Below are positions 19,591 to 64,000 of a DNA stretch of 64,000 nt, one piece after another. How positions within the stretch are numbered: the stretch's first letter is position 1; every line of letters starts with the position of its first letter. This DNA comes from an uncultured Pseudomonadales bacterium. Lineage in GTDB: Bacteria > Patescibacteriota > Microgenomatia > UBA1400 > UBA1396. Position numbers and translations under genes: made by a program. The notes beneath the pieces are model-generated. The model ran no database searches and was not told the origin of the DNA. It worked only from the letters and a program-made list of their open reading frames with translations. The stretch lies in NCBI GenBank assembly GCA_964519905.1, contig CAZFLN010000006.1, positions 4,058 through 68,057 on the forward strand, written 5' to 3'.

Positions 19591-19826
19591 AAAAGTCGCA
19601 CCTCCTATTCATCGCAGTTGCTCTGTTGGCGTATTATCTGGGATATCGTTCAGGAATCGGCAACCAGGTGGCTCGATATGGCGATACTGGGTTGCCAAAG
19701 AATTGCCGGGCGCTAATTGCCACCAACATCAGTGGTTTTAAGTATAGCCAGTACACCGCAGAGGAAGCGCTTTACTCTATCGACCGTAACTGTGGTCCAG
19801 CTGGGCTTATTTGGAATGAACGATGA
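19587..19826 (+). CDS. small membrane/secreted protein
   Basis: GGAGGAGG RBS then ATG overlapping the upstream stop (ATGA); signal-like MKKSHLLFIAVALLAYYLG. Confidence 0.4.
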   Translation: MKKSHLLFIAVALLAYYLGYRSGIGNQVARYGDTGLPKNCRALIATNISGFKYSQYTAEEALYSIDRNCGPAGLIWNER

Positions 19827-19831
19827 TGCAT

Positions 19832-20596: not shown

Positions 20597-20640
20597 TGAG
20601 AGGATTATACTCCGGCGTACGGACAGTCAGGTTCAGATAT

Positions 20641-22128: not shown

Positions 22129-22288
22129 GTTACACTTGTAAGCAATTTTGGTAACAAAATCCTGATTCAGACCCCATTTATTCCAGCAGTTTTTGCGATA
22201 ATTTCTTGTGTTGACAGATCAATCAATTTGCTCGTTTTCATTCCAATTCACACACGGTGTAAATTGACGTATATATCAATCTTTTCTG

Positions 22289-22318
22289 TTGACACCAATG
22301 GTATGCGGATGGTTATAT
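22289..22318 (+). promoter_or_regulatory. sigma70-like promoter (TTGACA-18-TTATAT) for the small-ORF/recombinase operon
   Basis: ttgaca 22289-22294, 18-nt spacer, ttatat 22313-22318. Confidence 0.45.
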
Positions 22319-22337
22319 TCGGACTAGGAAATCTACC

Positions 22338-22496
22338 GTGACCATCGCAAAAGCAAGAAAATTACTGGGAAAATCGGCGGAGCTGCTGACTGATGAACAG
22401 GTGCAGCTCAAAATTGACGTGGCTGAGCAGCTGAAGGAGTTGTTCTTTGATTTTTTGCTCAAGAGTTTAAGACAGAAAAAGGCATACCAATCTTGA
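22338..22496 (+). CDS. 52-aa small protein (GTG start) upstream of the serine recombinase; homolog of 62859..63044
   Basis: AGGAAA 6 nt upstream of GTG; IAKARKLLGKSAELLTDEQVQLKIDVAEQLKEL aligns with IEKAQAILRKSKHSFSDDQTERLIDVMEKFSSAI. Confidence 0.4.
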   Translation: MTIAKARKLLGKSAELLTDEQVQLKIDVAEQLKELFFDFLLKSLRQKKAYQS

Positions 22497-22503
22497 GGAA
22501 ACT

Positions 22504-24048
22504 ATGAAATACTTGGGTCCGATGCGAAAAAGAGTTGTTATATACATCCGAGTATCAGACCCTGGTCAAATCGATAACAATAGCCTTGAAACTCAAGAGA
22601 AATACTGTCGTAAAAAAGCCAGTGAAATGGGCGCTGAAGTTGTTGAGATATTTCGAGAGGAAGGTGTCTCTGCAAAGACAATTGACAAAAGGCCGGAACT
22701 GAGGCGACTTCTACAGTTTTGTAGCCTCAAAAAGAATGATATTCAAGCAGTTATTGTGTATAGACTGGACAGGTGGTCGAGAAATGTAACCGATGCATTG
22801 CAGGCAAAGTTTCTCCTTGCCAAGTATGGTGTTCAGCTTATTTCGGCAACTGAAGGCATAACAGACGATCCTCAAGGCGAATTTCTTGGAACGATCACTT
22901 TCGCTATGGCTCAGCTCGACAATCAACTCAAGGCCGCACGCGTCTCAGATAACATGAAGACTATGTTTCGAAATGGTTTGTGGCCATGGAAGGTCCCACC
23001 TGGTTATAAACGTCCATTCAAAACCAAAGAGGAAAGCAAAGGTAAACCAGCCATAATCGACCCCGACATCGGTCCAATTCTTCATGAGCTGTTTGTTGAG
23101 GCATCCAAAGGGATTTTTTCCAGGAAACAACTTGCTGAAAAGACAAATTTACTTGGATACGCGGATTTCAAAGGGAGGAAAATCAATGAAAAGGTAATCG
23201 TTGACATTCTTTCTGACACCTTTTACCACGGGCTTATGCATGCGCCGAGATGGGATGAGTACGCTGTCGGTTTGCATGAACCCCTGATTGATGAACTCAC
23301 TTGGAAAAAGGCGTATGCTTCAGTAATTAAGAAGCGAAAATATATGTATCAAGATACTGTGGATTACCCACTCAAGGGCACGATCAAGTGTGAGCTTTGT
23401 GACCACTTCATGACCTCGAGCAATCCCAGAGGGCGGACCAAGAACTACAAGCATTACGAATGTGGGAATCCAAAATGCCGTCGGTCACGTATCCTGGCGT
23501 CTTCAGCACATGAGCAGTTTGCATCCATTCTTTCCCGGGTCAAACCCGCTCCAGACGTCATGGTGTTGTTTACGGATATGGTATTTTCCGAATGGGATTC
23601 AGTGGTGAGTACCGTTGCGACACTCACTCAAACATTGGACAAGAGAATTGCCGACCAAAAAAAAGAACTCGATAGGATCAGTAGGTCTTGTGACCGAGGT
23701 ATATATACAGAGGCTGAGGCCAAGGAAAAAGCTGATGAAGTACGTCGAGAAATCACTATCTTGGAGGTTGAAAAAACTGACTCAGTGATAGCTGGATACG
23801 ATGCCAAGATCGTCAAGGCGTTTACCGAAAGATTCCTTGAACACTTTGACGAACTATGGAAACAACTTGATCTGCCCAAGCAGCAAGCTCTCCAGGTGAA
23901 AATATTTCCCAACGGTATCTTGTGTGACAAAAACAAGAATATTCGAACCGCAGAAATGAGCGAATGCTTCCAGCTAATTGAGGCTCTTGGAAGCGAAAAT
24001 GTCGAAAATGTGACCCCACGGAGATTCGAACTCCGGTTACCAGGATGA
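22504..24048 (+). CDS. large serine recombinase (integrase)
   Basis: VVIYIRVSDPGQ resolvase catalytic Ser region plus recombinase domain plus Cys-rich zinc-ribbon (CELCDHF...CGNPKC) plus coiled coil; last 38 nt overlap the tRNA-Glu gene. Confidence 0.85.
   Translation: MKYLGPMRKRVVIYIRVSDPGQIDNNSLETQEKYCRKKASEMGAEVVEIFREEGVSAKTIDKRPELRRLLQFCSLKKNDIQAVIVYRLDRWSRNVTDALQAKFLLAKYGVQLISATEGITDDPQGEFLGTITFAMAQLDNQLKAARVSDNMKTMFRNGLWPWKVPPGYKRPFKTKEESKGKPAIIDPDIGPILHELFVEASKGIFSRKQLAEKTNLLGYADFKGRKINEKVIVDILSDTFYHGLMHAPRWDEYAVGLHEPLIDELTWKKAYASVIKKRKYMYQDTVDYPLKGTIKCELCDHFMTSSNPRGRTKNYKHYECGNPKCRRSRILASSAHEQFASILSRVKPAPDVMVLFTDMVFSEWDSVVSTVATLTQTLDKRIADQKKELDRISRSCDRGIYTEAEAKEKADEVRREITILEVEKTDSVIAGYDAKIVKAFTERFLEHFDELWKQLDLPKQQALQVKIFPNGILCDKNKNIRTAEMSECFQLIEALGSENVENVTPRRFELRLPG
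24009..24027. repeat. attR: 19-bp direct repeat (tRNA-Glu 3' end)
   Basis: identical to 13874-13892. Confidence 0.8.
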
Positions 24049-24083
24049 GAACCTGGCGTCCTAGGCCTCTAGACGATGGGGCC
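24011..24083 (-). tRNA. tRNA-Glu (anticodon CTC)
   Basis: reverse complement folds as GGCCCCA acceptor, GTCTAGAGGCCTAGGAC D-arm, CCAGG-TTCTCAT-CCTGG anticodon arm, CGGAG-TTCGAAT-CTCCG T-arm, discriminator A; CCA not encoded. Confidence 0.85.
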
Positions 24084-50941: not shown

Positions 50942-52759
50942 TTACCAGCTCCCGCCGCCACCACCACCGCCACCGCCGCCAGATGATCCTCCTCCACCAC
51001 TCCAGCCAGATGATGAACTCGATGGGGCAGAAAACCCAGCTTTGGATTGTGAACGAAAAGAGTTGACTAAGCTTTGTTGCATCAGTCCGTTTTGAACGAG
51101 TGCTTGGGCATATTCTGGGGGTTTGAGGTGCAGGTCTTTGAGGTCTTTCGTAAGTTGTCTCACAACTCCAAATGCGACCGCGAACGGAAGGACTTCTTCC
51201 ACAAAAAGGTTTTTTTCCTTAATTTCTTCTCGCCACTTCCCGCGTGAGATTGTTTGACTCAGACCTTTCATCTTCCAGGCAAGATTACTTCCGACTGCTG
51301 TTCGGCTTGGCATCGCCCAAGCACAAGCAAGGGAGAGACCAGTCGAAAATATGAAGAGTGGCCAAAGAAGCATGGGAACAAATGGCGACAAAGCATTGAG
51401 TGCGCCAACCAGAATCACGGCATTGACTCCAATTGCAGCGAATATCCAGCCGGTTCGTATATAACTGGTTCGTCCTTGGATGAGATTTTTTTCTACGAGC
51501 TGCTTTTCGATCTCTTGTCCAACTTTGTGCATTGTCATGGAAAGCTTTCCACTCAAATCTTTGAGTGAAACTTCGTCTCCCGTAGCAAAAATTCCATCGA
51601 GAAGGACTTGTTGTGCGGCAGAGATTTTCTGCTTGGTATTTATTTTTTTCTTGAACCAGTACTCATTCTTCTTTCGTCGTTCGATGGTGAGAAGTTTTTT
51701 TCTGGCTAAATCAAGAATCTCAGCCGTCACCGCTTCTTGAGAAAATTGTTCTTGGACAAGGAAACTTGCTTCGCCAGGAGTCAGCTCTTTGGGTGGTTCG
51801 TAGATGAATGGAACCGTCGGCAAGTTCCAGGGCCAGTACTGTTTTTGCTCCCCAGAAGTGTTGGGAGTATGAATATTTCCACCATACCACCAGTCGCGAC
51901 CTTTCTTTCTGTAAGCATTTACAAAGAAAAGAACTGGGCCAATGGCAAAGAAGAGTGCCCAGTTATCTTTGAGCCACCATACCCAAGTTTGCAGTGGCGT
52001 GGGAGCTTGGACTGGTCCAGATGAATCAAGAGAAATTTGAGCGGTGACATTGTCTCCAAAGTAGATTGTTTTTGGATACGTGAGTTCAGCTGTTTTTCCT
52101 GAAGCAGTAATAGTACATAAGAAGTTATTTTTTCCATACGCACCAGAGAAACACTCAGCCAGAGTGATCTCGTTTGGACTGGTAATTGTGGCAGAGGTGG
52201 AAAAGACAGGAATGCGCCAGCTTTCTCCTACAATGTCCCAGTACAACTGTGGTGTTTCTGGAGAGTCGCTGTGAGCTTGAATAGCATGATCGACTCTATA
52301 CGAAATCGTATAGGTTTTTGGTCCAGTAAAGGTGGTGATTGGGTCACCGATCTTGAGAGTCAAGAACGCCCCATCGGCTGTTTGCTCAACCGGTACCGAT
52401 CGACCATCTGCCCGGACTCGCACGTCTCGTACCTGTGCAGTAAATCGCCATCCGTCGCGGTTGTAACGGAAGGGAATTTGGCGGTAAATGCCATGACGGG
52501 GACTTGGGGCAAAGAATTCAAGTGTTTCGGTAATGATGATGTCGCCATTTTCCTGAATTTGTATATCACTGTGGAAAGAGTGAATACCTTCTTGGAGTGA
52601 GACGGTATCTTCGGTGTTTGATTGCGCGTTGATTTGGTTTGCGTGTGTGAGTGGAACTATTGTAAAAATCACTGCCAAAATCAGGTACAATGCGGTGGTA
52701 TGACAACCTCGGCACACTTGAGCGATTTGGCGGAACAGATTTGGAAAGAACTGGATCAT
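50942..52759 (-). CDS. DUF2207-like membrane protein with C-terminal poly-Gly/Ser tail
   Basis: signal peptide, central TM helices, SSSSSGWSGGGGSSGGGGGGGGGGSW C-terminus; the annotated Met start overlaps nrnA head-to-head by about 60 nt; an internal GTG/TTG start is possible. Confidence 0.6.
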   Translation of the reverse strand: MIQFFPNLFRQIAQVCRGCHTTALYLILAVIFTIVPLTHANQINAQSNTEDTVSLQEGIHSFHSDIQIQENGDIIITETLEFFAPSPRHGIYRQIPFRYNRDGWRFTAQVRDVRVRADGRSVPVEQTADGAFLTLKIGDPITTFTGPKTYTISYRVDHAIQAHSDSPETPQLYWDIVGESWRIPVFSTSATITSPNEITLAECFSGAYGKNNFLCTITASGKTAELTYPKTIYFGDNVTAQISLDSSGPVQAPTPLQTWVWWLKDNWALFFAIGPVLFFVNAYRKKGRDWWYGGNIHTPNTSGEQKQYWPWNLPTVPFIYEPPKELTPGEASFLVQEQFSQEAVTAEILDLARKKLLTIERRKKNEYWFKKKINTKQKISAAQQVLLDGIFATGDEVSLKDLSGKLSMTMHKVGQEIEKQLVEKNLIQGRTSYIRTGWIFAAIGVNAVILVGALNALSPFVPMLLWPLFIFSTGLSLACAWAMPSRTAVGSNLAWKMKGLSQTISRGKWREEIKEKNLFVEEVLPFAVAFGVVRQLTKDLKDLHLKPPEYAQALVQNGLMQQSLVNSFRSQSKAGFSAPSSSSSGWSGGGGSSGGGGGGGGGGSW

Positions 52760-53719
52760 GCTGACTCTATTCTACTGCATTTTCATCCAAATCCGGATGG
52801 CGATAGCATGGGCTCAGCGCTCGGTTTAGCGCATGTATTGCGTGATTCTGGAAAGGCGGTCACGGTTATTGCTGGCGATTCTTTGATTCCAGAGTATTTG
52901 CGCCATCTTCCGGGTGTTGAGTTGGTGCAGGAGATTCCTTTTACCTCGGTAGATCAAACTCAGTTTGATCTGTTTGTTATTCTGGATAGTGCCTCTAAAG
53001 ATCAAATTTCCAAACAAAGTGAGGTGGAGTTTTCTCCTTCTTTGCGTACCATTGTGGTTGATCATCACGCCACAAATACTGGCTACGCTGATATAAACTG
53101 GATTGACTCTTCTGCTCCAGCCACGGCCCAATTGGTGACTGAACTTGTTACTTTGAAAGACCTTTCCATTTCTACCGCGGCGGCAACTTGTTTGCTGGTT
53201 GGTCTGTACACCGATACTGGTGGATTTCAGTATCCGCCAACTGGTCCAAGAACCTTTGCGGCTGCCGCCACACTGGCTGCTGTTGCTCCAGAGTATCACC
53301 AAGCTATTTTCCCAATTCACAATCAGTTGAGTCCGCACAACGTGCAGTATCAAGGATTGGCGTTGCGGAATATTCAGTTGTTCCCACTTCCAGATGGAAA
53401 GCAGCTCGCTCTCTCGGTAGTTTCGGCGCAGGAGCGTTTAGAGGCTGGAATCACTCCGGAATTTGCAGACAAGAGTCATATTGCCAATATCCTGAAATCA
53501 GTTGTTGGTTGGGATGTAGCGGTTGGTGTGGTCGAGATTGAGCCCGGAAACGTCAAAGCCAGTTTCCGCACTCGGAATACTAAGCAGTACCATGTTGGGA
53601 ACATTGCTGCGAGTTTAGGGGGCGGTGGACATGCAGCAGCAGCAGGTTTGTCTCTGCAGGATTCTCTCCCAGAGACAGTGCAAAAGATTGTGCAAGCTGT
53701 TCAGGAGTATGTTTCCTGA
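52700..53719 (+). CDS. nrnA: DHH-family phosphoesterase (NrnA-like oligoribonuclease / pAp phosphatase)
   Basis: HFHPNPDGDSMGS, VVDHHAT (DHH) and GGGGHAAAAG (DHHA1) motifs. Confidence 0.8.
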   Translation: MTTSAHLSDLAEQIWKELDHADSILLHFHPNPDGDSMGSALGLAHVLRDSGKAVTVIAGDSLIPEYLRHLPGVELVQEIPFTSVDQTQFDLFVILDSASKDQISKQSEVEFSPSLRTIVVDHHATNTGYADINWIDSSAPATAQLVTELVTLKDLSISTAAATCLLVGLYTDTGGFQYPPTGPRTFAAAATLAAVAPEYHQAIFPIHNQLSPHNVQYQGLALRNIQLFPLPDGKQLALSVVSAQERLEAGITPEFADKSHIANILKSVVGWDVAVGVVEIEPGNVKASFRTRNTKQYHVGNIAASLGGGGHAAAAGLSLQDSLPETVQKIVQAVQEYVS

Positions 53720-54198
53720 TTTTTTACGTGTCGTCTAGAGATACATCTCCAAGCCGCCACACTGCTGAGCCCTAACATTCCGCCGAGAACGTTGAGCAGA
53801 ATATCATCTATGTCACTGGCTCCAATATGGAGAAAGTACTGCAGTATCTCAACAGTCAGACTTAAAAAAATCATGAGTACCAGATGCCGCCAGTATGGGA
53901 CGGCACGACAAATGGCTGGCAAGAGTATCCCGAGCGGAAGAAACAACAGAATGTTCCCCAGAATATTATTGAGTATTACAGTCTGAGAAACACTCGTTGC
54001 TCGCCAGTAGTTTCGGATGGTTCGAAACGGTTCAAGGTTTATGCCTTGATACGTGGTTCGCTCTTGGATCAGCAGCTCAGCAGGAGAAACATATGCCAGA
54101 AGCGTAGCGGTAATAAAGAGCACGAAGTACAGTCCAAGCAGGAGCGGGAGTGCTCGTCTCCAGAGCTGAACACTTTTTGGAGACGAAGAAACAGTCAT
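53701..54198 (-). CDS. VanZ-family membrane protein
   Basis: VanZ-like GASDIDDILLNVLGGMLG and four TM segments. Confidence 0.7.
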   Translation of the reverse strand: MTVSSSPKSVQLWRRALPLLLGLYFVLFITATLLAYVSPAELLIQERTTYQGINLEPFRTIRNYWRATSVSQTVILNNILGNILLFLPLGILLPAICRAVPYWRHLVLMIFLSLTVEILQYFLHIGASDIDDILLNVLGGMLGLSSVAAWRCISRRHVKNQETYS

Positions 54199-54226
54199 GC
54201 TGATTTTTTGCTTCTGTGCAAACAGA

Positions 54227-54760
54227 TTAGAAAGTCAGTTCCATGAATCGCACCGTGGTTGGTGGCTGGAAAGTACTATCTGGAAGAGACTCAAACGTAC
54301 AGCTGATCTGCTCTTTTACCTTTTCCATTTCCTCGATTTCTTCTTCAGTTAAGTCTGAAAGATTAAAGGGATCATTGTCTGAGTCTGAATCAGTATCTGA
54401 ACCTTCAGTTTCATACTCTACAACCGGCATCTTTATGCCTGTCTCTTCCCCACTACTCCAGATATAGGTAAACTCCCCGTCGGTGAGGATATTGGCCGTT
54501 TCGTTGAGCTCAGGGTCGACGGAAGAAATAAACTGTTTCTTTCCACTCGACTTGAATTCGGCATCACCATCTTCTGAGCGGATGGTACAAGAGATATCAT
54601 TTCCTGCCTGCAGTGCGGCATAAATTCGGCTCTGGCCAACAATGTTGTCTCCCGTTGCTTCTTGGGATTGTCCGAGACCAGGAACATTTGCAGGGATGCA
54701 AGCCGTGAGTAAAACTCCAGAGAAAATGGTGAGTGCAGTGAGGGAAATTCGATGTAACAT
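54227..54760 (-). CDS. lipoprotein, acidic; unknown function
   Basis: lipobox LLTAC after a signal peptide. Confidence 0.5.
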   Translation of the reverse strand: MLHRISLTALTIFSGVLLTACIPANVPGLGQSQEATGDNIVGQSRIYAALQAGNDISCTIRSEDGDAEFKSSGKKQFISSVDPELNETANILTDGEFTYIWSSGEETGIKMPVVEYETEGSDTDSDSDNDPFNLSDLTEEEIEEMEKVKEQISCTFESLPDSTFQPPTTVRFMELTF

Positions 54761-55108
54761 GAACGGCTCCTTTTTGGTATGAGTCGACCCCCAATTTTGA
54801 GGGCTGTATTGGTTATAGCGTGTTGAGCAGATATTTGCAATGCGGTTGGAGAGCGAGTGCGTTGATGGTGCACCTATTGTACCAAAATTGGAACACCTTA
54901 CTTGAGTACCTGAGGAAACTTACTGAAACTGTCTCACGATGGTTCGATGTGCCAGTCCCTGCCTACCAGATTTCGGTCTAAATTATTCCACCTTAGAGGG
55001 AATAGAACATTGTTAGATGCGACAAATTCTTCGGGTTATTTTATAATCAAAGTATATAAAACGGAAGATGAAAATAGAGACTTCCGTCCCAATTTGGATT
55101 GAAACACA

Positions 55109-58018
55109 ATGGCAAAATATGATTTTCTAACACCAGATGGACATAAACCAATACGAGAAGTTCGTGCCGAGTTATTACAGCCATCTACGTGGAATGGTCC
55201 AAAACTTACTGAAGATGACGTAGACGCAGTAATTGAGCTGTTTTGGTTCCGTGATGCTCACGCTGCATTTATTTCTAAGGAAGAGATTTATCCTAAGTTT
55301 CTTGAATTCCTAAAAGAAAGAAAAGGTAAGAGCTTTAGGAGAGTTGATTTTTATGACTACCTTTTCTCGAGTCACCCACTTTACAAAGAGATACTCACAC
55401 TTGCTTATATTTTTGAAGAAGGAATGAGTGACAAGATTCCAGAGCAAGAATATCAAGAACTTGAGAAAAGACTTTCATTACACACAGGTCAATTAGTTTC
55501 AGAGCATATTTTGTACATAGATGAAGAAAACGCCATCCTTTCTCACCATACTATTTCCGAATACTTCGTTTCTCGAGATTTATTGACAAAAAAGAGTCCA
55601 CTTGAAGAATTAGAAAAGTTAGCAGTTATTGATGTTCCACAAACTGGAGAGCGCTATTTCAATCCTTCGTGGTATGGGGTCGTTTATTTCTTACTCGACT
55701 CAGAGATAACTCCTAGGCTTGTAGATTTTTTTACTAGTTTGGCTGACACAAATAAAAAAGTTGTTGACCAGAATTACTCTGAAATACTCTCCCACTCTAA
55801 TCTTGACTTACTTACCACTAAGCAAAGAAAAAAACTTTTCAATCAAATTTACACAAACTCGAAAGAGTCTGGCATTTGGATTTCAGAATGGGCAGTTGCT
55901 GGTCTGGTAAACCTTTATTCTAATGAAAGTACAGAAACTCTAGAAAGAGATTTAGTTGATGAACCTAGTGAATTTCCTGACATTCTCAAAACAGCGAACG
56001 TTGTTGCTGTAATGGGAGCATTACTTGAGGAAAAAAGGATAATTGATAAAGAAACCAAAAACCGTTGGAAAGATATTTTTATCAAATATGCAACTCAAAA
56101 AATTGGCAATGGAGTTCTACAACGGCGTAGTCTAAAAGCACTAGAGAGTTTTGATGATGAATCAATTATTGACCAAGTAAAGTCGTCATTTGACTTTACA
56201 AATGAAGGAGTACTAGAACAGTTCGTTCAGGAGGCATTCCTTCGTCTCTGCTATGAAATAGCACCAAATCATCCAACAACTATTGAGTACGTTATTAGAG
56301 GTTTTGACTCTCAAGCTCGTGCTTATGCCTGGTTTGGTTTGCAAAAAATAACTAACCTTGATTCAATCCTAAAATTTCTCGAGCAGCTAAGTAATGACTC
56401 AAAGTTACTAGACTTATTTTTGGATGATGAGAGTATTTTTTTGAAAAGCGATGAAGATGACGAAGAGGAGAAAGCATTCTTGCAGAGAGTAAGAGAGTTG
56501 GCTAACTCTGAAAAATTAGAGGAATTTTTGTCTATTGCTGCCAATCTAATTGTGGAAGCTTGCGATGTTCAACGCTATTACTACATTCAAAAGAAAACAT
56601 TTGTTCCCACTGTCTTGGAAACGGCGTTAGCAGCTGAACCAGATTTTTGGAGACGATTACTTACAGCAGAACCTGGTGAAAAAAGAAACCGTGAACACTT
56701 CAACCTCATTCATTTATTAGCCTCTGTGACCAATGAAAATAACTGTCAAAGTATCAGTGGTGGTATCAGAGAACTCAAACCAGATTTATTTGATAAATAT
56801 GTTTACAACATCCCTGTGAAGCAAGTAAGGGACAAGCTTATTGAAGAGCATTCTTTGAAGCCTATTGAGACAAGAGATTGGGAGAAGGAAGAAGCTGATA
56901 GAAAGCAAAAATTTATTGATGATTTCAACTTCAAGTTAGAACCAGAACCAAAGCAGTACATTACAGACGTTTTTGATTATTATTTACGTAATAAAAAAGA
57001 AATTGGAGAGCTTACTGTAAAGCAACGAGAAAGACTACTCTTCTTAGCATATGAAGACGGAGTCAAACGACTCAATCCCCGTGATTTTACATTGAAAATA
57101 AATAAATATGGCGACGGGAAGAATTTTTCCTGGTCTAGGCAAGCCCAGTTTTATGGGGATATGGTGAGAGTTGTTCGAGAGCTTGAACCACAACTCCTAG
57201 AAAACTGCAAACAGCAGCTGATTGACTTCATTCCTTTTGCATTCAGCGATGATGCCTCGACAATCAAGGAAGTTGTAGACCGAGTAGGTGAAGAAGAGAT
57301 TGCTTACCTCAATGAAGTGTTTTCTGACGAGGAAAATGATAGACGCTACTTGATGCCTAGCTCCTACATTTACTTCGTCCGTGATATGAAAAAGAAGGGA
57401 TGTGAACTTACTACTCCCAAAGAGGTTTTGAAATCATTTATTGGCGATGAGAAAATAAGTGAATATGACCAGAGTTCGGCTTTAGAAACCCTTGAATACT
57501 TTATAAACCAATCAGACCAGGATACTAAGCAATTTCTAAAGGAAATTGAAGGCAAGGAAGATAAAAGACTATCAGAAGAGGCAAATGCTCTTCTTATCAA
57601 GATATTCAAAGATAATGATTCGATTGATTGGAGATTCTCCAGTCTCAGGAAGTTTGCGGTACCTGTAAAACCTCATCGTAGTGGTGAAGTTTACAGTGTA
57701 GCTTTCCCAGAAGAAGAGTTTATTAGTCGTCCATTTATTTCCCCGCTGGTAGATGTTGGGAGTCCTAAATTGGCTAGCAAATTTATAAACCTTCTTGATT
57801 TTAGTTTCGAATTTTCTCAAGAGAAAGATTCTGAACAATTTTGTGAGTATGTAAATAGGTCTGTTTTAGCTTATTTTGAGAAAATAGCTAAACCAGAAAA
57901 TTATAAACTCTTTCTAGAATTAGAGGAAAAAGTCCAAAATAGTGAAAGTATTTTTTGGAAATACCATCTGCCCAATCTACGCATTCTTTATTTGAATAGG
58001 AAGGTGAGCAATGCCTAG
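55109..58018 (+). CDS. 969-aa alpha-helical repeat protein of unknown function
   Basis: long ORF in the AT-rich block; no NTPase or nuclease motif seen. Confidence 0.55.
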   Translation: MAKYDFLTPDGHKPIREVRAELLQPSTWNGPKLTEDDVDAVIELFWFRDAHAAFISKEEIYPKFLEFLKERKGKSFRRVDFYDYLFSSHPLYKEILTLAYIFEEGMSDKIPEQEYQELEKRLSLHTGQLVSEHILYIDEENAILSHHTISEYFVSRDLLTKKSPLEELEKLAVIDVPQTGERYFNPSWYGVVYFLLDSEITPRLVDFFTSLADTNKKVVDQNYSEILSHSNLDLLTTKQRKKLFNQIYTNSKESGIWISEWAVAGLVNLYSNESTETLERDLVDEPSEFPDILKTANVVAVMGALLEEKRIIDKETKNRWKDIFIKYATQKIGNGVLQRRSLKALESFDDESIIDQVKSSFDFTNEGVLEQFVQEAFLRLCYEIAPNHPTTIEYVIRGFDSQARAYAWFGLQKITNLDSILKFLEQLSNDSKLLDLFLDDESIFLKSDEDDEEEKAFLQRVRELANSEKLEEFLSIAANLIVEACDVQRYYYIQKKTFVPTVLETALAAEPDFWRRLLTAEPGEKRNREHFNLIHLLASVTNENNCQSISGGIRELKPDLFDKYVYNIPVKQVRDKLIEEHSLKPIETRDWEKEEADRKQKFIDDFNFKLEPEPKQYITDVFDYYLRNKKEIGELTVKQRERLLFLAYEDGVKRLNPRDFTLKINKYGDGKNFSWSRQAQFYGDMVRVVRELEPQLLENCKQQLIDFIPFAFSDDASTIKEVVDRVGEEEIAYLNEVFSDEENDRRYLMPSSYIYFVRDMKKKGCELTTPKEVLKSFIGDEKISEYDQSSALETLEYFINQSDQDTKQFLKEIEGKEDKRLSEEANALLIKIFKDNDSIDWRFSSLRKFAVPVKPHRSGEVYSVAFPEEEFISRPFISPLVDVGSPKLASKFINLLDFSFEFSQEKDSEQFCEYVNRSVLAYFEKIAKPENYKLFLELEEKVQNSESIFWKYHLPNLRILYLNRKVSNA

Positions 58019-58877
58019 TCTCACCTCTAAACCTTCTGGAGAGCAACAAGACTATGATTTTCTGGTTTCACCAGATGTACCTGAAAGAGTTCGCTTAGCA
58101 AAAGAAAAAATCTTTGAATCATCTTCTTCAATTTTTGAAAAGATGAGTTCAATCTTCTTTATTATTTCTGAGGGATACTTGAGAGAGCTTCCACACGAGA
58201 TAGAACATTCGTTACTTGTGTGCAACTTAGTAACCCGTACTGAGCGTGGTTATGAGATAAACAAGGTAAATGGCCTCACTAGTCCTTTTTACGTTTCATT
58301 TACAGAGGTTGCTTATTTAGCAGCTGTATTTCAACCTTGTCTTTCCAGCTCAGAATACAGAGGTTTGATTGATTTTGATACAAGTCTCAACGGAGATAGT
58401 TTTTTTCTGAATAAAGACGAAATTGATAGGCTCAACTTAGTTGCTTTTATGGAGGTGCTTGGAATACTGAAAGTTGAAAAAGTATCTGGCATTAGAAAAA
58501 AGTGTGTTTTTTCGGAGGTAGGCAAACAATTTCTTAGTGAAATTAGAAATTATAAAGGTCCTGAAACAAAGGCTGAAATTATTTCTGAGCAAAGCAGTGT
58601 GGATGAAGTAGTAGAAGTTACTCAGACTTCATCTCCACCTGTGCCAAAATCAAAAAATAAGAATTTGGTAATGCAGGTTCTGCTATGGGGGAAGAACCAG
58701 GTTTGGGATAGTTTCAACGCATCAATAAAAATAGTACTAATTTCTGGATTTTTACTTACATTTGCAATGCTATTTATCTTCGTTATAAAACCTCATATTG
58801 GGCAAGGACAAATTGATTACTGGAAACCTAAAGTTGATGCGGCATATTCCTTTGTTGCAAGGCGCCTTTTCCCATAA
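58011..58877 (+). CDS. 288-aa protein with C-terminal TM anchor, translationally coupled to the 969-aa gene
   Basis: 8-nt overlap with the upstream stop; C-terminal helix IVLISGFLLTFAMLFIFVI. Confidence 0.5.
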   Translation: MPSLTSKPSGEQQDYDFLVSPDVPERVRLAKEKIFESSSSIFEKMSSIFFIISEGYLRELPHEIEHSLLVCNLVTRTERGYEINKVNGLTSPFYVSFTEVAYLAAVFQPCLSSSEYRGLIDFDTSLNGDSFFLNKDEIDRLNLVAFMEVLGILKVEKVSGIRKKCVFSEVGKQFLSEIRNYKGPETKAEIISEQSSVDEVVEVTQTSSPPVPKSKNKNLVMQVLLWGKNQVWDSFNASIKIVLISGFLLTFAMLFIFVIKPHIGQGQIDYWKPKVDAAYSFVARRLFP

Positions 58878-58881
58878 GTAT

Positions 58882-59247
58882 ATGTATAACAATCTTATTG
58901 AATATAGAAATGTTGCCATTCCAACTAATGCTTGCTTGCTTACCACAAGATATAGGTGCGGAAAGAAAAGTTGCAAGTGTAACCGTGGTTATCTACACAC
59001 AGCCAATGCTATCAAGTACAGAATTGACTCTGTTCAAAAAATGAAATACGTAAGGCAATCAGACGTTGAACGTGTTCGTAAACTTCTCTATCAAGCTAAA
59101 GGTATTGAGATATTAGAACGTGCAGATAAATACATCTTTTCTATTGCCGCAATGTTTCCAGAGCTAAGCGGTCAAGATATTCACATCAAGGCATACGAAG
59201 TTTTTGGACAACAAAAACAGCTCCCTGTCTTCTCTCCTGCCAACTGA
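58882..59247 (+). CDS. small Cys-cluster (zinc-ribbon-like) protein
   Basis: CGKKSCKCNRGYLH; start at MYNNLIE just after the upstream stop. Confidence 0.35.
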   Translation: MYNNLIEYRNVAIPTNACLLTTRYRCGKKSCKCNRGYLHTANAIKYRIDSVQKMKYVRQSDVERVRKLLYQAKGIEILERADKYIFSIAAMFPELSGQDIHIKAYEVFGQQKQLPVFSPAN

Positions 59248-59294
59248 TGATTGAAATAGCCCTGTTGTGGTATATCAGATAAAATGAATACCAG

Positions 59295-59798
59295 ATGTAT
59301 AGGGATAAAAATAAGCCACCATTATCACCACAGGATACTAAGTTTTGGAGCTATGCTGCCAAACTAAAGAAGAACGGTCACAAGACTATTGTTCACGCAT
59401 TAGCTTGGGAGTCTCCGAAAGCATATCAGTACCTACTCTCACTGTTTCGAGATAAAACTCCACTAGAACGCATCACAATTCTTCTCTGGCGTGATTATCA
59501 ATCCGTGGTCAGGAAACTTGAGATGAAAGGTTATGGCACGCTCTCACCATCCAGCCTGAGAACTTTTCGGGAAAAATACTTCCTTACTAAGGATCTTCCT
59601 AATCCTGAGTTGGATAAAAATAAGACGTCAGTAGAGGCAACACTCGCTCACCAGCTAGGCACACAACTCACCAAAATGGCTGAATCTCTCGATGAGATTG
59701 AACGAAGAGTGTATCCAACCAAAATTGGACATAATCTTCGTAAAAAAGCCTTTGATTCACTCCGAAAAGCTGTGATTTTGCAAACTCGATTGTCATAA
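59295..59798 (+). CDS. hypothetical protein
   Basis: 167-aa ORF. Confidence 0.4.
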   Translation: MYRDKNKPPLSPQDTKFWSYAAKLKKNGHKTIVHALAWESPKAYQYLLSLFRDKTPLERITILLWRDYQSVVRKLEMKGYGTLSPSSLRTFREKYFLTKDLPNPELDKNKTSVEATLAHQLGTQLTKMAESLDEIERRVYPTKIGHNLRKKAFDSLRKAVILQTRLS

Positions 59799-60068
59799 AG
59801 TGTCGGATAAGTCGGCATATTCTTGACGTACTCGGTCTGCGAGTCATACTAAGTTCATATATTCAATAAATACGGATATATCGAACTAATATGACATCAA
59901 GAAAATATAGAAATACCCCTATAAATCCTCTCAAATCAGAGCAGTTACTCACTCAAAAACAGCTCATCAGCAAGATAAATAAGCACACAGCCTTTACGTA
60001 TAGGTTTGTGGACATCCTTTCCAGACAAATTGACCAGATGGATAACAAGTACAGAAAGGATAAAGAAA

Positions 60069-60686
60069 ATGGCAGGTAAAGCTCCTTACAAACCCTCTCT
60101 AATTGGTGACTATGAATGGGACGAGGTTTCATCAGCACTCAATAAAATGATTCGCAGAAATCGTGAGTATGAAGCCTGCTTCTGGGCTTATGTCATACAC
60201 CAATCTGGTTATGGTCTGTATTTGTGGAGAAGACTTACCCTCATAGCTGCTGAAGATATTGGCAATGCTAGTCCAATGAGCCAAATCTTGGTTGATGCTC
60301 TGGCCTCAAATTGGGAACGGATGCACAAGCAAGCTAAAGAACCAACTTTAGCAAAGTTAGCTTTAGTGTTTCAGGCAATTCAAGCTCTTTGTCAGGCAAA
60401 GAAAACTCGTGAGATTGATGACCTGAGAAATCTCATTGCTCAGGAATACGAATATCTTGGTAAGAGGTTGGAAATCCCTGATGTAGCAAAAGACTGTCAC
60501 ACCGCCGTTGGCAAGGCTAAGTACGGAAAGTTTGGTGATAAAGATGGTCGTGAAGAAGAACGTCTGAGGCTCTGGAGAGCTGAATGGAATGTGGTTGAGC
60601 CAGAAGCATATAAGGGAAAGTACTTGGAGCAGCTCAAGGTAGTCGAGAAAGAAATTATCAAAAGAAAGGGAGAGGAAAAGGAGTGA
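60069..60686 (+). CDS. standalone MgsA/RarA C-terminal-domain-like protein
   Basis: MIRRNREYEACFWAY...LWRRLTLIAAEDIGNASP matches the MgsA_C signature (SIRGSDxDAALYW...RRLxxIAsEDIGlAdP). Confidence 0.5.
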   Translation: MAGKAPYKPSLIGDYEWDEVSSALNKMIRRNREYEACFWAYVIHQSGYGLYLWRRLTLIAAEDIGNASPMSQILVDALASNWERMHKQAKEPTLAKLALVFQAIQALCQAKKTREIDDLRNLIAQEYEYLGKRLEIPDVAKDCHTAVGKAKYGKFGDKDGREEERLRLWRAEWNVVEPEAYKGKYLEQLKVVEKEIIKRKGEEKE

Positions 60687-60868: not shown

Positions 60869-61780
60869 ATGAATATGCAAACCGCCATTACTCAGTTTCA
60901 AGATTACATAACAATACAGAAAGGTTTCTCACCAAAAACTATTGATGCTTACGTAAGTGACCTGAATAAATTTTCTGACTTTTTAGCGACTCGAAATTTT
61001 CCATTCACTGTTCACCAGATACAAGAAGAGCATATAGTGAGCTACTTAGCCTTTCTCTCACATCCTAATGATAATAAAAAGCCGAATCTCGCCACCTCAA
61101 GGGCAAGAAAATTAGCGAGTATTCGTAGTTTTTTCAATTTCTTGAGAAAAAAACACTATATTGATGTCAGTCCAGCAATAGATATTGATATTCCAAAATT
61201 ACCGCAGAAAGAACCTGACTATCTAACCATCAGTGAATACCAACATTTACTTGCCACAATTAGAGAAGTAGCTTCCCCATTTTTCAAGTTGCGTGATTTG
61301 TGTATTTTTTCGTTATTTCTTTCAACTGGAATTAGAGTTAGTGAACTAGTCAACCTTACACTCGCTGATGTTGACCTTGAATATAAGACAATAAAAATTC
61401 ATCGCAAAGGTAATAAGGAGCAAACCATACCTCTGAATGATGAAATTTCTACTCTTATTCGAGAATACCTTGCCAATCGTCCTGAAGCACAAATAAATCA
61501 GCTTTTTATTAGCAAAAAAGGTAATGGAGTCAAAGCAAATACTGTTTATTGTCTGGTAAAAAAGTACCTAAAGTTGGCAAATCTTGAGAAGAGCAAACAA
61601 GGCCCTCACATTCTAAGGCACTCCTGCCTTAGCACACTTCTCGCCAATGGTGTAAATCCAGTCATTATTCAGCAGTTAGCTGGACATAGAAGCTTCGATA
61701 CAACCAGACGTTACTTACACCTCAATAACGCTCAAATTCGTGAAGCAGTACAAACAATAAATCTGAAAGGAGATTTATGA
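60869..61780 (+). CDS. tyrosine recombinase (XerC/XerD-like integrase)
   Basis: SAM-like N-terminal domain; catalytic R (GIRVSE), HILRHS, GHRSFDTTRRYLH (H-R-Y). Confidence 0.8.
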   Translation: MNMQTAITQFQDYITIQKGFSPKTIDAYVSDLNKFSDFLATRNFPFTVHQIQEEHIVSYLAFLSHPNDNKKPNLATSRARKLASIRSFFNFLRKKHYIDVSPAIDIDIPKLPQKEPDYLTISEYQHLLATIREVASPFFKLRDLCIFSLFLSTGIRVSELVNLTLADVDLEYKTIKIHRKGNKEQTIPLNDEISTLIREYLANRPEAQINQLFISKKGNGVKANTVYCLVKKYLKLANLEKSKQGPHILRHSCLSTLLANGVNPVIIQQLAGHRSFDTTRRYLHLNNAQIREAVQTINLKGDL

Positions 61781-62627: not shown

Positions 62628-62858
62628 TTAGAAGAAAGTTGGTCTCAAAATTAGATTCACGCTCATTGACATTCTATTACTTTTATTGCGATACACAGAT
62701 ATATTTGCATATTTTGTTGTGTAATTGGTTGCTATAATGGCAATACGCAAAAAAGTTATTGCTAGCCACTCTGAGTGAGCTAAATCCTTCGGTACGGTGC
62801 CGAAGTCAAACAACAGTTCCGTAGTTATTTCTACTTGCGTTAGAAAGCTACGGTTGTT

Positions 62859-63044
62859 GTGAGACAAAGTTCAATTATCTCTATTGAAAAAGCCCAGGCA
62901 ATACTGCGTAAGAGCAAGCACAGTTTTTCAGATGACCAAACAGAGCGTCTGATTGATGTGATGGAAAAATTTTCTTCCGCAATTATCGACAAAATCGACT
63001 CCAAAAAAGAATCGGTTCCCCATTTGGCGGAGCGGAAAACTTAG
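62859..63044 (+). CDS. 61-aa small protein (GTG start) upstream of the second serine recombinase; homolog of 22338..22496
   Basis: about 35% identity over 36 aa (KA..L..KS....D.Q...ID....) with the small ORF preceding the first serine recombinase. Confidence 0.4.
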   Translation: MRQSSIISIEKAQAILRKSKHSFSDDQTERLIDVMEKFSSAIIDKIDSKKESVPHLAERKT

Positions 63045-63064: not shown

Positions 63065-64000
63065 ATGAGAGATAAAAAACCCACAGCACTAATAATGACG
63101 CGAGCATCATCTGGAAAACAGGTGATTGAAGGAGATACTATTGATGCTCAGATTGAAGATGCTAAATACTTTATAAGCCAAAATAATTGGGATTGGCATG
63201 CAAAAATATTTGAACTTGTTGAATCTGCCACTATCCCGGATAGGGAGCAATTTCAAGAGGTTTTAGACTTTTGTGAATCTCATAAAAATGAGATAGATTT
63301 TGTTGTTTTCAAAGATATTTCAAGACTAACAAGAAAAGGAACTACTGATTATTTCATACTCAAAAAAGGCCTAGCTGAGTTTGGTATAGAAATTAGAGAT
63401 ACAACTGGTGTGATTCGACCAGTTATAAACCCTTTCGAAAAATACAACCTCCAATATGACTGGGCTATGTATTCCCCCTCAGAGCGGGAAGAAGCAAATG
63501 AAGCAGAATCAGCAAGAGCTTATATGAGACAAAGTATTGGTCGAATGATTCTTGCTGAGGTGAGATATGCTAAAAAAGGTTATTGGGTTAGAAGTCCTGT
63601 TTATGGATTCAAAAACGAAAAAATAACTACCTCTGACGGAATCAGGAACATAATGGTGGAAGAACCTGATGAGGCATTTTTTGTACGATTGATTTTTCAA
63701 CTAAGGGCAGAGGGACAGTTGAATGATGTGGAAATATCAGAAAAACTCAACGGTATTGGTTTTAGAACTAGAAAAATTATAAGGAGAGATAAAAGAACCA
63801 AAGCAATTATTGGGTATGGAGGAGAAAATAAAATGACTCCTAAACTTCTTCAAAGGATGATACGAAGAACAATCTATGCTGAGGTGATTTGTGAAAAGTG
63901 GACCAAGCACAAACCAATTTTAGCTGCTTTCGATGGCTTGATTGATATTGATACATTCAACAAAGCCAATCGTGGAGCTATTGAACTTGAAATGCTAAGC
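63065..64000 (+). CDS. large serine recombinase, 5' portion (runs off the window)
   Basis: ATG at 63065 and open frame to 64000 with no stop; ALIMTRASSGKQ catalytic Ser region then recombinase domain (LRAEGQLNDVEISEKLNGIGFRTRK). Confidence 0.75.
   Translation, partial: MRDKKPTALIMTRASSGKQVIEGDTIDAQIEDAKYFISQNNWDWHAKIFELVESATIPDREQFQEVLDFCESHKNEIDFVVFKDISRLTRKGTTDYFILKKGLAEFGIEIRDTTGVIRPVINPFEKYNLQYDWAMYSPSEREEANEAESARAYMRQSIGRMILAEVRYAKKGYWVRSPVYGFKNEKITTSDGIRNIMVEEPDEAFFVRLIFQLRAEGQLNDVEISEKLNGIGFRTRKIIRRDKRTKAIIGYGGENKMTPKLLQRMIRRTIYAEVICEKWTKHKPILAAFDGLIDIDTFNKANRGAIELEMLS

What the first reader, a model, noticed from the sequence alone, without database searches (positions are those of the whole stretch)
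63065..64000. Second large serine recombinase gene missing from the ORF table (open to the window end)
From the ATG at 63065 the frame is open through 64000: MRDKKPTALIMTRASSGKQ...DFVVFKDISRLTRKGTTDY...LRAEGQLNDVEISEKLNGIGFRTRK, which gives resolvase catalytic-serine and recombinase domains. Together with the XerD-like gene at 60869 it indicates that another mobile element occupies the right end of the window.
Basis: seen in the sequence. Interest (0 to 1): 0.5.

Follow-up and report, generated by a model that had tools for sequence, protein, structure and literature searches.

The report
Serine integrase targeting a tRNA gene
The open frame at the right edge of the window is the first half of an intact 603-residue large serine integrase, which closes a roughly 10-kb foreign island next to a tRNA-Arg gene in a candidate-phyla-radiation bacterium; it is an ordinary kind of gene, but its clade is unusual in landing in tRNA genes.

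Summary
From the ATG at 63065 to 64000 there are 312 codons and no stop, with a significant Resolvase catalytic domain. The gene is not a pseudogene. A database protein (P0018, 603 aa, from a 71,067-bp NCBI contig) is 100% identical over all 312 residues. Its AlphaFold model matches full-length large serine integrases (PhiC31, Bxb1 and others).

Its last 39 residues are the antisense reading of a tRNA. By comparison with related genomes this is tRNA-Arg(UCU), which in relatives lies 9 nt after the DHH gene at 52622-53719. In the window that junction is filled by about 10-11 kb of non-syntenic DNA. Most of it is low-GC and it ends in the integrase.

Relatives show the same layout. In 32 of 55 loci the integrase frame ends inside an antisense tRNA gene. 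Two integrated elements have 19-nt repeats of the tRNA 3' end, and several contigs look like the excised form.

The left end (attL) of this island was not found, and the DNA beyond 64000 could not be read. Verdict: a new member of the large serine integrases, from a sparsely described tRNA-targeting clade centred on Patescibacteria.

The parts
63065..64000 (+). First 312 of 603 codons of a large serine integrase: catalytic domain (about residues 1-135, nucleophile S15), long helix alpha-E (about 140-170) and most of the recombinase domain (about 173-330). By arithmetic from P0018, the gene should end at 64876.
62859..63044 (+). Small ORF (61 aa, GTG start) 20 nt upstream of the integrase. It belongs to a family of 50-61-aa proteins found immediately upstream of related integrases. 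It is a candidate directionality factor or regulator; the function is inferred only.
   Evidence: Conserved in L063, L065, L066, L067, L006 and L001; dN/dS 0.073 against L063
62663..62858 (+). Conserved non-coding stretch where 85% nucleotide homology with the sister locus L063 begins. It contains an extended -10-like TGCTATAAT (62728-62736) and a leader with three hairpins (62742-62862).
   Evidence: MFE z-score -3.9 in the window, -3.0 in L063
61923..62627 (+). Cargo gene, 234 aa, with an N-terminal membrane anchor and no family match.
60869..61780 (+). XerC/D-like tyrosine recombinase (303 aa) inside the low-GC island. The catalytic R...HxxR...H...Y residues are present, but the score is below the XerD/XerC equivalog cut-offs.
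   Evidence: (XerD 217 bits against cut-off 329.6)
60006..60686 (+). Cargo gene, 226 aa, matching only the C-terminal domain of MgsA/RarA-type AAA+ ATPases.
55109..59798 (+). Cargo genes of unknown function (969 aa, 288 aa, 149 aa, 167 aa), all on the + strand, with GC 0.36-0.42.
54761..55108 (.). Intergenic zone where GC content shifts; the most likely left boundary of the island. It holds a weak candidate remnant, TGGTGCACCTA (54864-54874), which resembles the 3' end of a tRNA-Arg. This is not significant on its own.
   Evidence: negative searches
53701..54760 (-). VanZ-like gene (53701-54198) and a 177-aa gene with a lipoprotein-like N-terminus read by eye (54227-54760). They have host-like GC but no counterpart in related genomes between DHH and tRNA-Arg. 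Whether they belong to the island is undecided.
52622..53719 (+). DHH-family phosphoesterase gene, the last syntenic host gene. In relatives tRNA-Arg(tct) follows it directly on the minus strand.

Best explanation
The frame 63065-64000 is the 5' half of an intact gene for a 603-residue large serine recombinase. This enzyme is the integrase of a roughly 10-kb (at most 11-kb) island inserted at the 3' end of a tRNA-Arg(UCU) gene, which lies on the minus strand just beyond the window (predicted about 64757-64831). The integrase frame runs antisense through that tRNA and stops at 64876. The proposed mechanism is as follows. [quoted passage not shown] Integrase dimers bind attP and the tRNA T-arm/acceptor region (attB) and synapse. 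Ser15 cuts all four strands, the subunits rotate, and religation leaves the element between the host DHH gene and a tRNA whose 3' part is now supplied by the element. The 61-aa gene directly upstream may set directionality or expression. Shown here: the ORF, its catalytic domain and fold, the full-length product, the tRNA-like tail, the insertion relative to related genomes, and the att architecture in relatives and in the window's first element. Inferred: the tRNA sequence beyond the window, the crossover position, activity, and the role of the small ORF.
For: ORF and domains. The full-length product P0018 is 603 aa, 100% identical and covers 100% of the query, from a 71,067-bp NCBI contig; the neighbouring DHH product P0122 comes from a contig of the same length. 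Fold: the AF2 model has mean pLDDT 86.8, and the top Foldseek hits are full-length serine integrases (9dxd 2.6e-14, PhiC31 9tep/9rah, Bxb1 9iu2, 4bqq, 4kis). The family profile hits the TP901-1 integrase catalytic domain at 1.1e-9. Residues 325-476 match the XisF model at 1.5e-7. C348, C351 and C377 of the zinc ribbon are conserved. Tail: P0018 ends ...VRPAGVEPATCSLEGRCSIQLSYGR..., which matches the antisense translation of tRNA-Arg(tct) in related genomes (VRPAGLEPATYSLEGSCS... and ...SLEGSCSIQLSYRR). The tail has pLDDT below 50. Sister copies at least 89% identical read through tRNA-Arg(tcg) in L063 and tRNA-Arg(gcg) in L074. Synteny: ArgRS-arginase-DinB-DUF2207-DHH is conserved in L068-L073, and tRNA-Arg(tct) on the minus strand follows DHH by 9 nt in L070/L071. 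Nothing from window 53.66-64.0 kb is found in those loci. GC is 0.36-0.43 in the island against 0.46-0.48 in the host. Family behaviour: in 32 of 55 related loci the integrase frame ends inside an antisense tRNA gene (Glu 18, Arg 4, Lys 4, Gly 3, Asp 2, Trp 1). Nineteen-nt direct repeats of the tRNA 3' end bound the window's first element (13874-13892 and 24009-24027) and a 2.85-kb element in L029. Contigs L008, L064 and L065 look like attP forms, with a tRNA-like block of about 10-21 nt (about 20 nt in L008 and L064, about 10 nt in L065) and no tRNA. Purifying selection: dN/dS 0.038.
Against: The DNA beyond 64000 was never seen, so the tRNA is inferred from a protein tail and from relatives. 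No copy of a tRNA-Arg 3' end was found anywhere in the window (best 12 of 17 specified bases, which is chance level). No flanking direct repeat was found. The left att site is therefore missing or decayed, and the island may no longer be able to excise. Pfam does not detect the Recombinase or Zn-ribbon domains in this protein. Apart from the XerD-like gene, the cargo carries no recognisable mobility, phage or defence genes and is not shared with related elements. The VanZ and 177-aa genes (53.7-54.8 kb) are non-syntenic but have host-like GC, which blurs the boundary. No activity data exist.
Confidence: 0.8

Rival explanations
1. It is a grounded island. The integrase gene is intact, but the element has lost its left att site and can no longer excise. 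The gene persists either because the loss is recent or because it serves in trans for the other tRNA-borne element in the genome.
For: No tRNA-Arg 3' remnant or direct repeat was found anywhere in the window. By contrast, the window's first element and L029 keep perfect 19-nt repeats. The VanZ and 177-aa genes between DHH and the low-GC block suggest later rearrangement.
Against: dN/dS of 0.038 against a copy with dS of about 1 argues for long-term function. All catalytic and zinc-binding residues are retained. The two integrases in the window are only 22% identical, so cross-service is unlikely. The cognate tRNA sequence is unknown, so a short or diverged attL could have been missed.
Confidence: 0.3
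2. The integrase belongs to a minimal element of about 2.2 kb (leader, 61-aa ORF, integrase; 62.66 kb to the tRNA). The low-GC block 55.1-62.6 kb, with the XerD-like gene, is a separate and unrelated island lying next to it.
For: Nucleotide homology with the sister locus L063 starts abruptly at 62663, and the DNA upstream is unrelated (a GDSL lipase in L063). A 2.85-kb element consisting of little more than the integrase exists in L029.
Against: There is no tRNA remnant or repeat at 62.6 kb. L063 also has no repeat within the 1.75 kb upstream of its integrase, so the homology break looks like a cargo junction rather than an element end. All genes from 55.1 to 64 kb share strand and low GC. Other relatives carry about 10 kb of cargo.
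Confidence: 0.12
3. The protein is not an integrase but a serine recombinase with another job: DNA invertase, resolvase, developmental excisionase of the XisF/SpoIVCA type, or a TnpX-like transposase.
For: There are weak NCBIfam matches to XisF and CcrB, and PHROG phrog_125 'DNA invertase' scores 1.2e-8.
Against: Those scores are far below the family cut-offs (30.7 against 375; 20.1 and 18.0 against 900). The 603-aa length and the NTD-RD-ZD-coiled-coil fold match integrases. The consistent position on the 3' end of tRNA genes, with target repeats and attP-like forms, is integrase behaviour. No inverted repeats flank an invertible segment.
Confidence: 0.04
4. The frame is a pseudogene or a chance open frame cut by the window.
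For: Only half the gene is visible in the window, and related loci do contain disrupted copies (L026, L043, L053, L024).
Against: The source contig's own product is 603 aa and identical over the window part. dN/dS is 0.038. The structure is predicted with confidence along residues 1-564.
Confidence: 0.02

Closest known systems
Phage-type large serine integrases (PhiC31, Bxb1, TP901-1, A118/LI integrase)
   Same: The domain order is the same: resolvase-type catalytic domain with a serine nucleophile, long helix E, recombinase domain, then a zinc ribbon with a coiled-coil insert. Foldseek aligns 520-650 columns to these structures. The family profile hits the TP901-1 catalytic domain. The inferred chemistry is the same: double-strand cuts and subunit rotation.
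   Different: Sequence identity is only 10-16%. Pfam's Recombinase and Zn-ribbon models do not detect this protein, and tblastn finds no match in 50,697 phage or 72,556 plasmid records. To my knowledge, the characterised enzymes use attB sites in protein-coding or intergenic DNA. This clade sits on tRNA genes, has an identity block of about 19 nt, and its own reading frame runs into the tRNA. The cargo has no phage genes.
Tyrosine-integrase islands in tRNA genes (P4/pSAM2/Ms6 type; SSV1 type with attP inside int)
   Same: The target logic is the same. Integration is at the T-loop-to-3'-end part of a tRNA gene. The element carries a replacement copy, so the tRNA stays whole. The integrase gene lies at the tRNA-proximal end. 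As in SSV1-type integrases, attP overlaps the integrase reading frame (established knowledge; the T-loop attB of Ms6 is described in PMC1762012; tRNA attB sites as the norm for tyrosine integrases in PMC8092301).
   Different: The enzyme family and chemistry are unrelated (serine against tyrosine). Here only a dispensable tail of the protein changes on integration: 514 against 523 aa for element 1 and 577 against 578 aa for L029. The gene is not split.
PhiRSM small serine recombinase integrating at a tRNA-Ser gene (Askora et al. 2011; cited as reference 22 in PMC7192596; the details are from my own knowledge)
   Same: It is a serine recombinase that uses the 3' end of a tRNA gene as attB.
   Different: It is a small, resolvase-like protein without the recombinase and zinc-ribbon domains, from a filamentous phage of Ralstonia. 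It has no detectable specific relationship to this clade.
XisF (fdxN element excisionase) and CcrB (SCCmec recombinase)
   Same: These are the best NCBIfam matches. The XisF model aligns to residues 325-476, the zinc-ribbon/coiled-coil part.
   Different: Scores are 30.7 bits against cut-off 375 and 18-20 bits against cut-off 900. Context and targets differ.

Membership tests
Large serine recombinases (serine integrases) | N-terminal resolvase-type catalytic domain with the nucleophilic serine and the conserved arginines | tested here: met
   PF00239 scores E=2.6e-12 on residues 10-114. S15, Q19, R87 and R90 are invariant and R13 is at least 90% conserved in 75 family members. The profile aligns to the TP901-1 integrase R-V-S motif.
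Large serine recombinases (serine integrases) | Recombinase domain (Pfam PF07508) after helix E, detected at sequence level | tested here: not met
   PF07508 gives no hit at E<=1 on the 312-aa fragment or at E<=0.001 on the full P0018. About 40%-identical relatives (L013, L008) score 4.1e-10 and 5.6e-11 on the aligned region.
Large serine recombinases (serine integrases) | Recombinase domain, zinc ribbon and coiled-coil, detected at fold level | tested here: met
   The AF2 model has pLDDT 86.8, and Foldseek matches along the whole length to 9dxd, 9y66, 9tep, 9iu2, 4bqq and 4kis (E 2.6e-14 to 1.6e-7). Long paired helices span 411-489. C348, C351 and C377 are conserved. The XisF model matches residues 325-476 at 1.5e-7. 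The zinc ribbon and coiled coil lie beyond the window and are known only from P0018.
Large serine recombinases (serine integrases) | Defined attP and attB sites with a short common core; attL and attR flank the integrated element | tested here: inconclusive
   This is met for relatives: 19-nt repeats in window element 1 and in L029, and attP-like junctions in L008, L064 and L065. For this element attR lies outside the window and no attL was found.
Large serine recombinases (serine integrases) | Catalysis of unidirectional attP x attB recombination, reversed by a directionality factor | not testable with these tools
   This needs a recombination assay. The 61-aa upstream ORF is only a candidate factor.
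Genomic islands integrated in tRNA genes | Integrase gene adjacent to the 3' end of an intact tRNA gene | tested here: inconclusive
   The tRNA is inferred from the tail of P0018 and from tRNA-Arg(tct) at the syntenic place in relatives. It is seen directly in sister loci L063 and L074. The window's own DNA there is not available.
Genomic islands integrated in tRNA genes | Absent from the same site in related genomes, with deviant base composition | tested here: met
   Synteny ends at 53,659, and relatives have tRNA-Arg directly after DHH. GC is 0.36-0.43 against 0.46-0.48.
Genomic islands integrated in tRNA genes | Direct repeat of the tRNA 3' segment at the distal end | tested here: not met
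   No match better than chance to the back-translated or related tRNA-Arg 3' ends. No direct repeats in 53.5-64 kb.
XisF / CcrB equivalogs (NCBIfam) | Score above the curated cut-off | tested here: not met
   XisF scores 16.6 bits (fragment) and 30.7 bits (P0018) against cut-off 375. CcrB scores 20.1 and 18.0 bits against cut-off 900.
Small serine recombinases (resolvases/invertases) | About 180-200 aa: catalytic domain followed directly by a helix-turn-helix | tested here: not met
   The product is 603 aa with recombinase, zinc-ribbon and coiled-coil domains.
XerC/XerD (for the neighbouring gene 60869-61780) | Equivalog-level score and a chromosomal housekeeping context | tested here: not met
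   XerD scores 217.1 bits against 329.6 and XerC 211.1 against 335.15. The gene lies in the non-syntenic low-GC block. The general tyrosine-recombinase fold and the catalytic residues are present.

The most novel reading that the evidence does not exclude
The gene is one representative of a large, uncharacterised clade of large serine integrases centred on Patescibacteria, about 200 clusters at 50% identity. Their natural attB is the T-arm-to-3'-end of tRNA genes, and their attP overlaps the end of their own reading frame. Targeting has shifted repeatedly between tRNAs (Glu, Arg, Lys, Gly, Asp, Trp). Copies at least 89% identical sit on three different tRNA-Arg isoacceptors, with their differences concentrated in the zinc-ribbon domain. 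If so, this is a natural series of retargeted serine integrases with conserved, universally present landing sites.
Probability: 0.45. Interest if true: 0.6.

Novelty: new member of a known kind. Interest (0 to 1): 0.4.

Why it matters
For this window, the result settles that the right end is a foreign island closed by an intact serine integrase, and it predicts what lies just beyond the edge: a tRNA-Arg(UCU) gene read antisense by the integrase frame.

More broadly, textbook practice assigns tRNA landing sites to tyrosine integrases. Here a whole clade of serine integrases does the same job in candidate-phyla-radiation bacteria, whose mobile elements are poorly known. Serine integrases are favoured genome-engineering tools because they need short sites and no host factors. 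A family whose targets are tRNA genes could therefore be useful for choosing or redesigning landing sites, particularly as close relatives have moved between isoacceptors. The practical value depends on experiments not done here.

Tried and rejected
1. Extending the contig. Scans of genome contigs and metagenome contigs with a family alignment returned only relatives at most 47% identical. The exact product P0018 is in the protein collection, but its contig is not on record.

2. Finding the left att site. I searched for tRNA-Glu-type ends, back-translated tRNA-Arg ends with up to 3 mismatches, and the tRNA-Arg(tct) ends of relatives. I also ran a permissive Rfam scan of 53.5-64 kb and a repeat search. 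All were negative or at chance level. TGGTGCACCTA at 54864 is kept only as a weak, post-hoc candidate.

3. Assigning a function to the cargo. Pfam, NCBIfam, PHROGs and PADLOC gave nothing for the 969-, 288-, 167- and 234-aa proteins.

4. Shared cargo. The island's genes have no homologues next to related integrases, apart from the 61-aa ORF.

5. Known phage or plasmid relatives. There is no tblastn match in either collection and only one relative in IMG/VR.

6. Literature. Nine full-text searches and seven papers read gave no description of tRNA-targeting large serine integrases or of this clade. This is absence from a partial library, not proof of novelty.

7. I first assumed the target would be tRNA-Glu, as in most relatives and in element 1. 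I rejected this after reading the tail of P0018 and seeing the synteny.
Full report
Observation. A GAAGGT ribosome-binding motif precedes the ATG. The mechanical ORF list omits the frame because it does not list ORFs that run off the window. Pfam finds the Resolvase catalytic domain on residues 10-114 (E=2.6e-12, 47.5 bits against a cut-off of 23.3). PHROGs places the protein in the phage 'integrase' family phrog_95 (E=3.5e-26). The window's other gene of this type is 22504-24048, with Resolvase, Recombinase and zinc-ribbon hits, so 'second' is correct.

Is the gene whole? A single-sequence search found only three relatives, at most 47% identical. A profile search then recovered P0018. This is a 603-aa NCBI protein from a 71,067-bp contig, and it is 100% identical over 100% of the window fragment. 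The neighbouring DHH gene's product (P0122) is likewise 100% identical and comes from a contig of the same length. P0018 is therefore the window gene's full product, and 312 of its 603 codons lie inside the window. Its contig DNA could not be fetched. A copy 85% identical in nucleotides (92% in protein) on locus L063 gives dN/dS = 0.038 over the 312 codons, with dS about 1. The pseudogene scenario is excluded.

What the protein is. In a 75-member alignment S15, Q19, R87, R90, C348 and C351 are invariant, and R13, H376 and C377 are nearly so. The family profile aligns to the TP901-1 integrase catalytic domain (1.1e-9), with R-x-S on the known R-V-S motif. An AlphaFold2 model of P0018 has mean pLDDT 86.8. 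It shows the catalytic domain, a long helix at 140-170, a mixed alpha/beta domain up to about 330, a zinc-ribbon region, and two long paired helices at 411-489. Foldseek against the PDB returns full-length serine integrases first: an integrase-RDF complex (9dxd, 2.6e-14), PhiC31 (9tep, 9rah), Bxb1 (9iu2), PhiC31 NTD+RD (4bqq) and the LI integrase-DNA complex (4kis). The alignments cover 520-650 columns for the full-length structures. The NCBIfam XisF model matches residues 325-476 at 1.5e-7 but far below its cut-off. Pfam's Recombinase and zinc-ribbon models do not detect this protein, although they do detect relatives about 40% identical. It is therefore a large serine recombinase by catalytic motif and fold, from a divergent branch. 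tblastn finds nothing in 50,697 phage or 72,556 plasmid records. An exhaustive HMMER scan of 1.84 billion representatives finds 211 proteins at E<=1e-30, aligned end to end.

What lies beyond the window. P0018 ends ...KLSVLFKLKSQQNLSKDHLVRPAGVEPATCSLEGRCSIQLSYGRANTYDYACERIVQR. The segment VRPAGVEPATCSLEGRCSIQLSYGR is what one gets by translating a tRNA gene on its antisense strand. The antisense frames of tRNA-Arg(tct) genes in related genomes read VRPAGLEPATYSLEGSCS... (L068) and VRPPRFELGTYSLEGSCSIQLSYRR (L070-L072). The model gives this tail pLDDT below 50, so it is probably unstructured read-through. In the sister locus L063 the frame runs through tRNA-Arg(tcg), and in L074 through tRNA-Arg(gcg); both are seen directly in DNA. 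By arithmetic the window's gene should stop at 64876, and the tRNA should occupy about 64757-64831 on the minus strand. This is inference.

Host context. Orthologues of the DHH phosphoesterase (52622-53719), 62-72% identical, were located on six contigs. The best-named relative is a Woesebacteria genome at 60% identity. The order ArgRS-arginase-DinB-DUF2207-DHH is conserved with the window from about 44 kb to 53,659. In L070 and L071 a minus-strand tRNA-Arg(tct) starts 9 nt after the DHH stop. In L072 it follows after one extra gene. Nothing from window 53.66-64.0 kb has a counterpart on those contigs, at DNA or protein level. GC is 0.46-0.48 up to the 177-aa gene (lipoprotein-like N-terminus by eye) that starts at 54760, 0.42 in the 54761-55108 spacer, and 0.36-0.43 in every gene from 55109 to the window's end. 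All of those genes are on the + strand. The window therefore carries an insertion of 9.6-11 kb between DHH and the tRNA-Arg, ending in the integrase.

Behaviour of the family. The two collection scans gave 62 related loci, mostly from Patescibacteria genomes (Woese-, Pace-, Saccharibacteria, Nomura-, Parcubacteria). In 32 of the 55 loci where the integrase frame reaches a stop, it ends inside a tRNA gene on the opposite strand. The overlap is commonly 41 nt. The tRNAs are Glu 18, Arg 4, Lys 4, Gly 3, Asp 2 and Trp 1. The window's first integrase does the same on tRNA-Glu(ctc) at 24010-24083. That element is bounded by a perfect 19-nt repeat, TGTGACCCCACGGAGATTC, at 13874-13892 and 24009-24027. 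This repeat runs from the tRNA's 3' end into the T-loop. L029 has an equivalent 19-nt repeat bounding a 2.85-kb element in tRNA-Lys. Contigs L008, L064 and L065 carry the integrase followed by only about 10-21 nt of tRNA-like sequence (about 20 nt in L008 and L064, about 10 nt in L065) and then unrelated DNA. L008 is a circular permutation of the integrated L013. These look like the excised (attP) form. Reconstructing the circles changes only the last few residues of the protein: 514 to 523 aa for element 1 and 577 to 578 aa for L029. The family thus behaves as site-specific integrases. Their attB is the T-arm-to-3'-end of a tRNA gene, and their attP overlaps their own stop region.

The island itself. 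The cargo is as follows: 969-, 288-, 149- and 167-aa proteins without any family match; a 226-aa protein matching only the C-terminal domain of MgsA/RarA ATPases; an intact XerC/D-like tyrosine recombinase (below equivalog cut-offs, catalytic residues present); and a 234-aa membrane-anchored protein. None of these recurs beside related integrases, so the XerD-like gene's connection to the integrase is not shown. Homology with L063 begins at 62663. It covers a promoter-like TGCTATAAT, a leader with three hairpins (z = -3.9 and -3.0) and a 61-aa ORF. That ORF belongs to a family of 50-61-aa proteins placed directly upstream of related integrases, and it has dN/dS 0.073. It may be a directionality factor or a regulator. 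This is a guess based on position, size and the existence of small factors for other serine integrases.

The weak point. No copy of a tRNA-Arg 3' end was found in the window, whether with back-translated patterns, with relatives' sequences, or by repeat search. The left att site is therefore unresolved. It may be decayed, which would make the island grounded. It may be too short to recognise without the cognate tRNA sequence. Or the real element may be smaller. TGGTGCACCTA at 54864-54874 resembles the 3' end of the tRNA-Arg in L074, but I noticed it after the fact and it is not significant. The VanZ and 177-aa genes (53.7-54.8 kb) are non-syntenic yet host-like in GC, so their status is open.

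Mechanism and comparison. The most likely working is the standard serine-integrase cycle applied to a tRNA target, as set out under best explanation. The fold, catalytic residues, target association and att architecture are shown. The chemistry, crossover position and directionality control are inferred from the family (established knowledge on PhiC31, Bxb1 and the LI integrase). In target logic it works like tyrosine-integrase islands at tRNA genes, but it is not a member of that family. Three copies at least 89% identical sit on three tRNA-Arg isoacceptors. Their least conserved part is the zinc-ribbon domain: 79% identity for P0018 against each of the other two copies, against 85-100% in the other domains (P0022 and P0121 are 93% identical to each other there). 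This hints that the domain tracks the target. That is a lead from three sequences, not a result.

Novelty. Nine full-text searches and the papers read gave no description of large serine integrases with tRNA attB sites or of this clade. They do confirm that tRNA sites are regarded as typical of tyrosine integrases (PMC8092301). One paper's reference list cites a small serine recombinase (PhiRSM) (reference list of PMC7192596); that it uses a tRNA-Ser site is from my own knowledge. Large island databases (TIGER/Islander, PMC12424338) may already hold such cases. I therefore rate the gene as a new member of a known kind, with a moderate chance that its clade is a new and useful variant.

Noticed in passing
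window 13874-24083: The first integrase's element is precisely delimited. A perfect 19-nt direct repeat, TGTGACCCCACGGAGATTC, lies at 13874-13892 and 24009-24027. The integrase at 22504-24048 reads 39 nt into tRNA-Glu(ctc) at 24010-24083 (minus strand). The element is about 10.1 kb, and its cargo includes a 1260-aa and a 514-aa protein without family matches and a DUF5677 protein.
   Followed up: partly
window 6757-13525: A low-GC block lies directly left of element 1's left repeat. It holds a type III restriction-modification pair (methylase 11519-13525, Res helicase-endonuclease 8811-11513) and an AAA_15/AAA_21 ATPase (6757-8688). It may be an older island at the same tRNA-Glu site or a defence island.
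   Followed up: no
window 62742-62862 and L063 1428-1548: A conserved 5' leader with three hairpins lies upstream of the 61-aa ORF and integrase. The folding energy z-scores are -3.9 and -3.0, the stems are kept while the loops differ, and an extended -10-like TGCTATAAT precedes it at 62728-62736. No Rfam family matches.
   Followed up: partly
window 62859-63044; L063 1545-1730; L065 7625-7777; L066 8077-8247; L006 9807-9989; L001 9817-9996: A family of 50-61-aa proteins always sits immediately upstream of the integrase. The shared motif is roughly x[EK]A[RQ]xxL...[YF]SD[ED]Q. It has no Pfam, PHROG or PADLOC match and is under purifying selection.
   Followed up: partly
L063 3442-3518; L074 1792-1868; beyond window 64000: Integrases at least 89% identical are found on three different tRNA-Arg genes (tcg, gcg and, by inference, tct), whose acceptor and T-stem sequences differ. 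The zinc-ribbon domain is the least conserved part of the proteins: 79% identity between P0018 and each of the other two copies.
   Followed up: partly
L065 9536-17991; L013 8885-9664: Some relatives carry transfer genes. L065, an attP-like contig without a tRNA, has VirB4/TraG-like, TraC-like, TrbC and pilin genes. Saccharibacteria elements have a Replic_Relax (replication-relaxation) gene next to the integrase. At least part of the clade therefore rides on conjugative or mobilisable elements.
   Followed up: no
L040 about 11650-11762: A partial copy of a tRNA-Glu 3' end (GTGACCCCACAGCGATTCGAACTCGAG) lies directly before an intact tRNA-Glu, and the integrase frame ends in the partial copy. 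It looks like the trace of a repeated or imprecise integration.
   Followed up: no
L005 9923-12727: A 934-aa frame continues 1.1 kb past an antisense tRNA-Trp instead of stopping in it. This is unexplained; it could be a fusion, an assembly artefact or an alternative genetic code.
   Followed up: no
L008 3343-3364 and L009 3198-3210: Two Saccharibacteria contigs are 99.9% identical through the integrase and diverge completely within the tRNA-like block, right after TTGGTGA. This is as expected if recombination at the att site has exchanged what lies downstream.
   Followed up: partly
window 60006-60686: A 226-aa protein matches only the C-terminal domain of MgsA/RarA AAA+ ATPases, and no ATPase domain is detectable in the ORFs upstream. 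It may be a gene fragment or a stand-alone domain.
   Followed up: no
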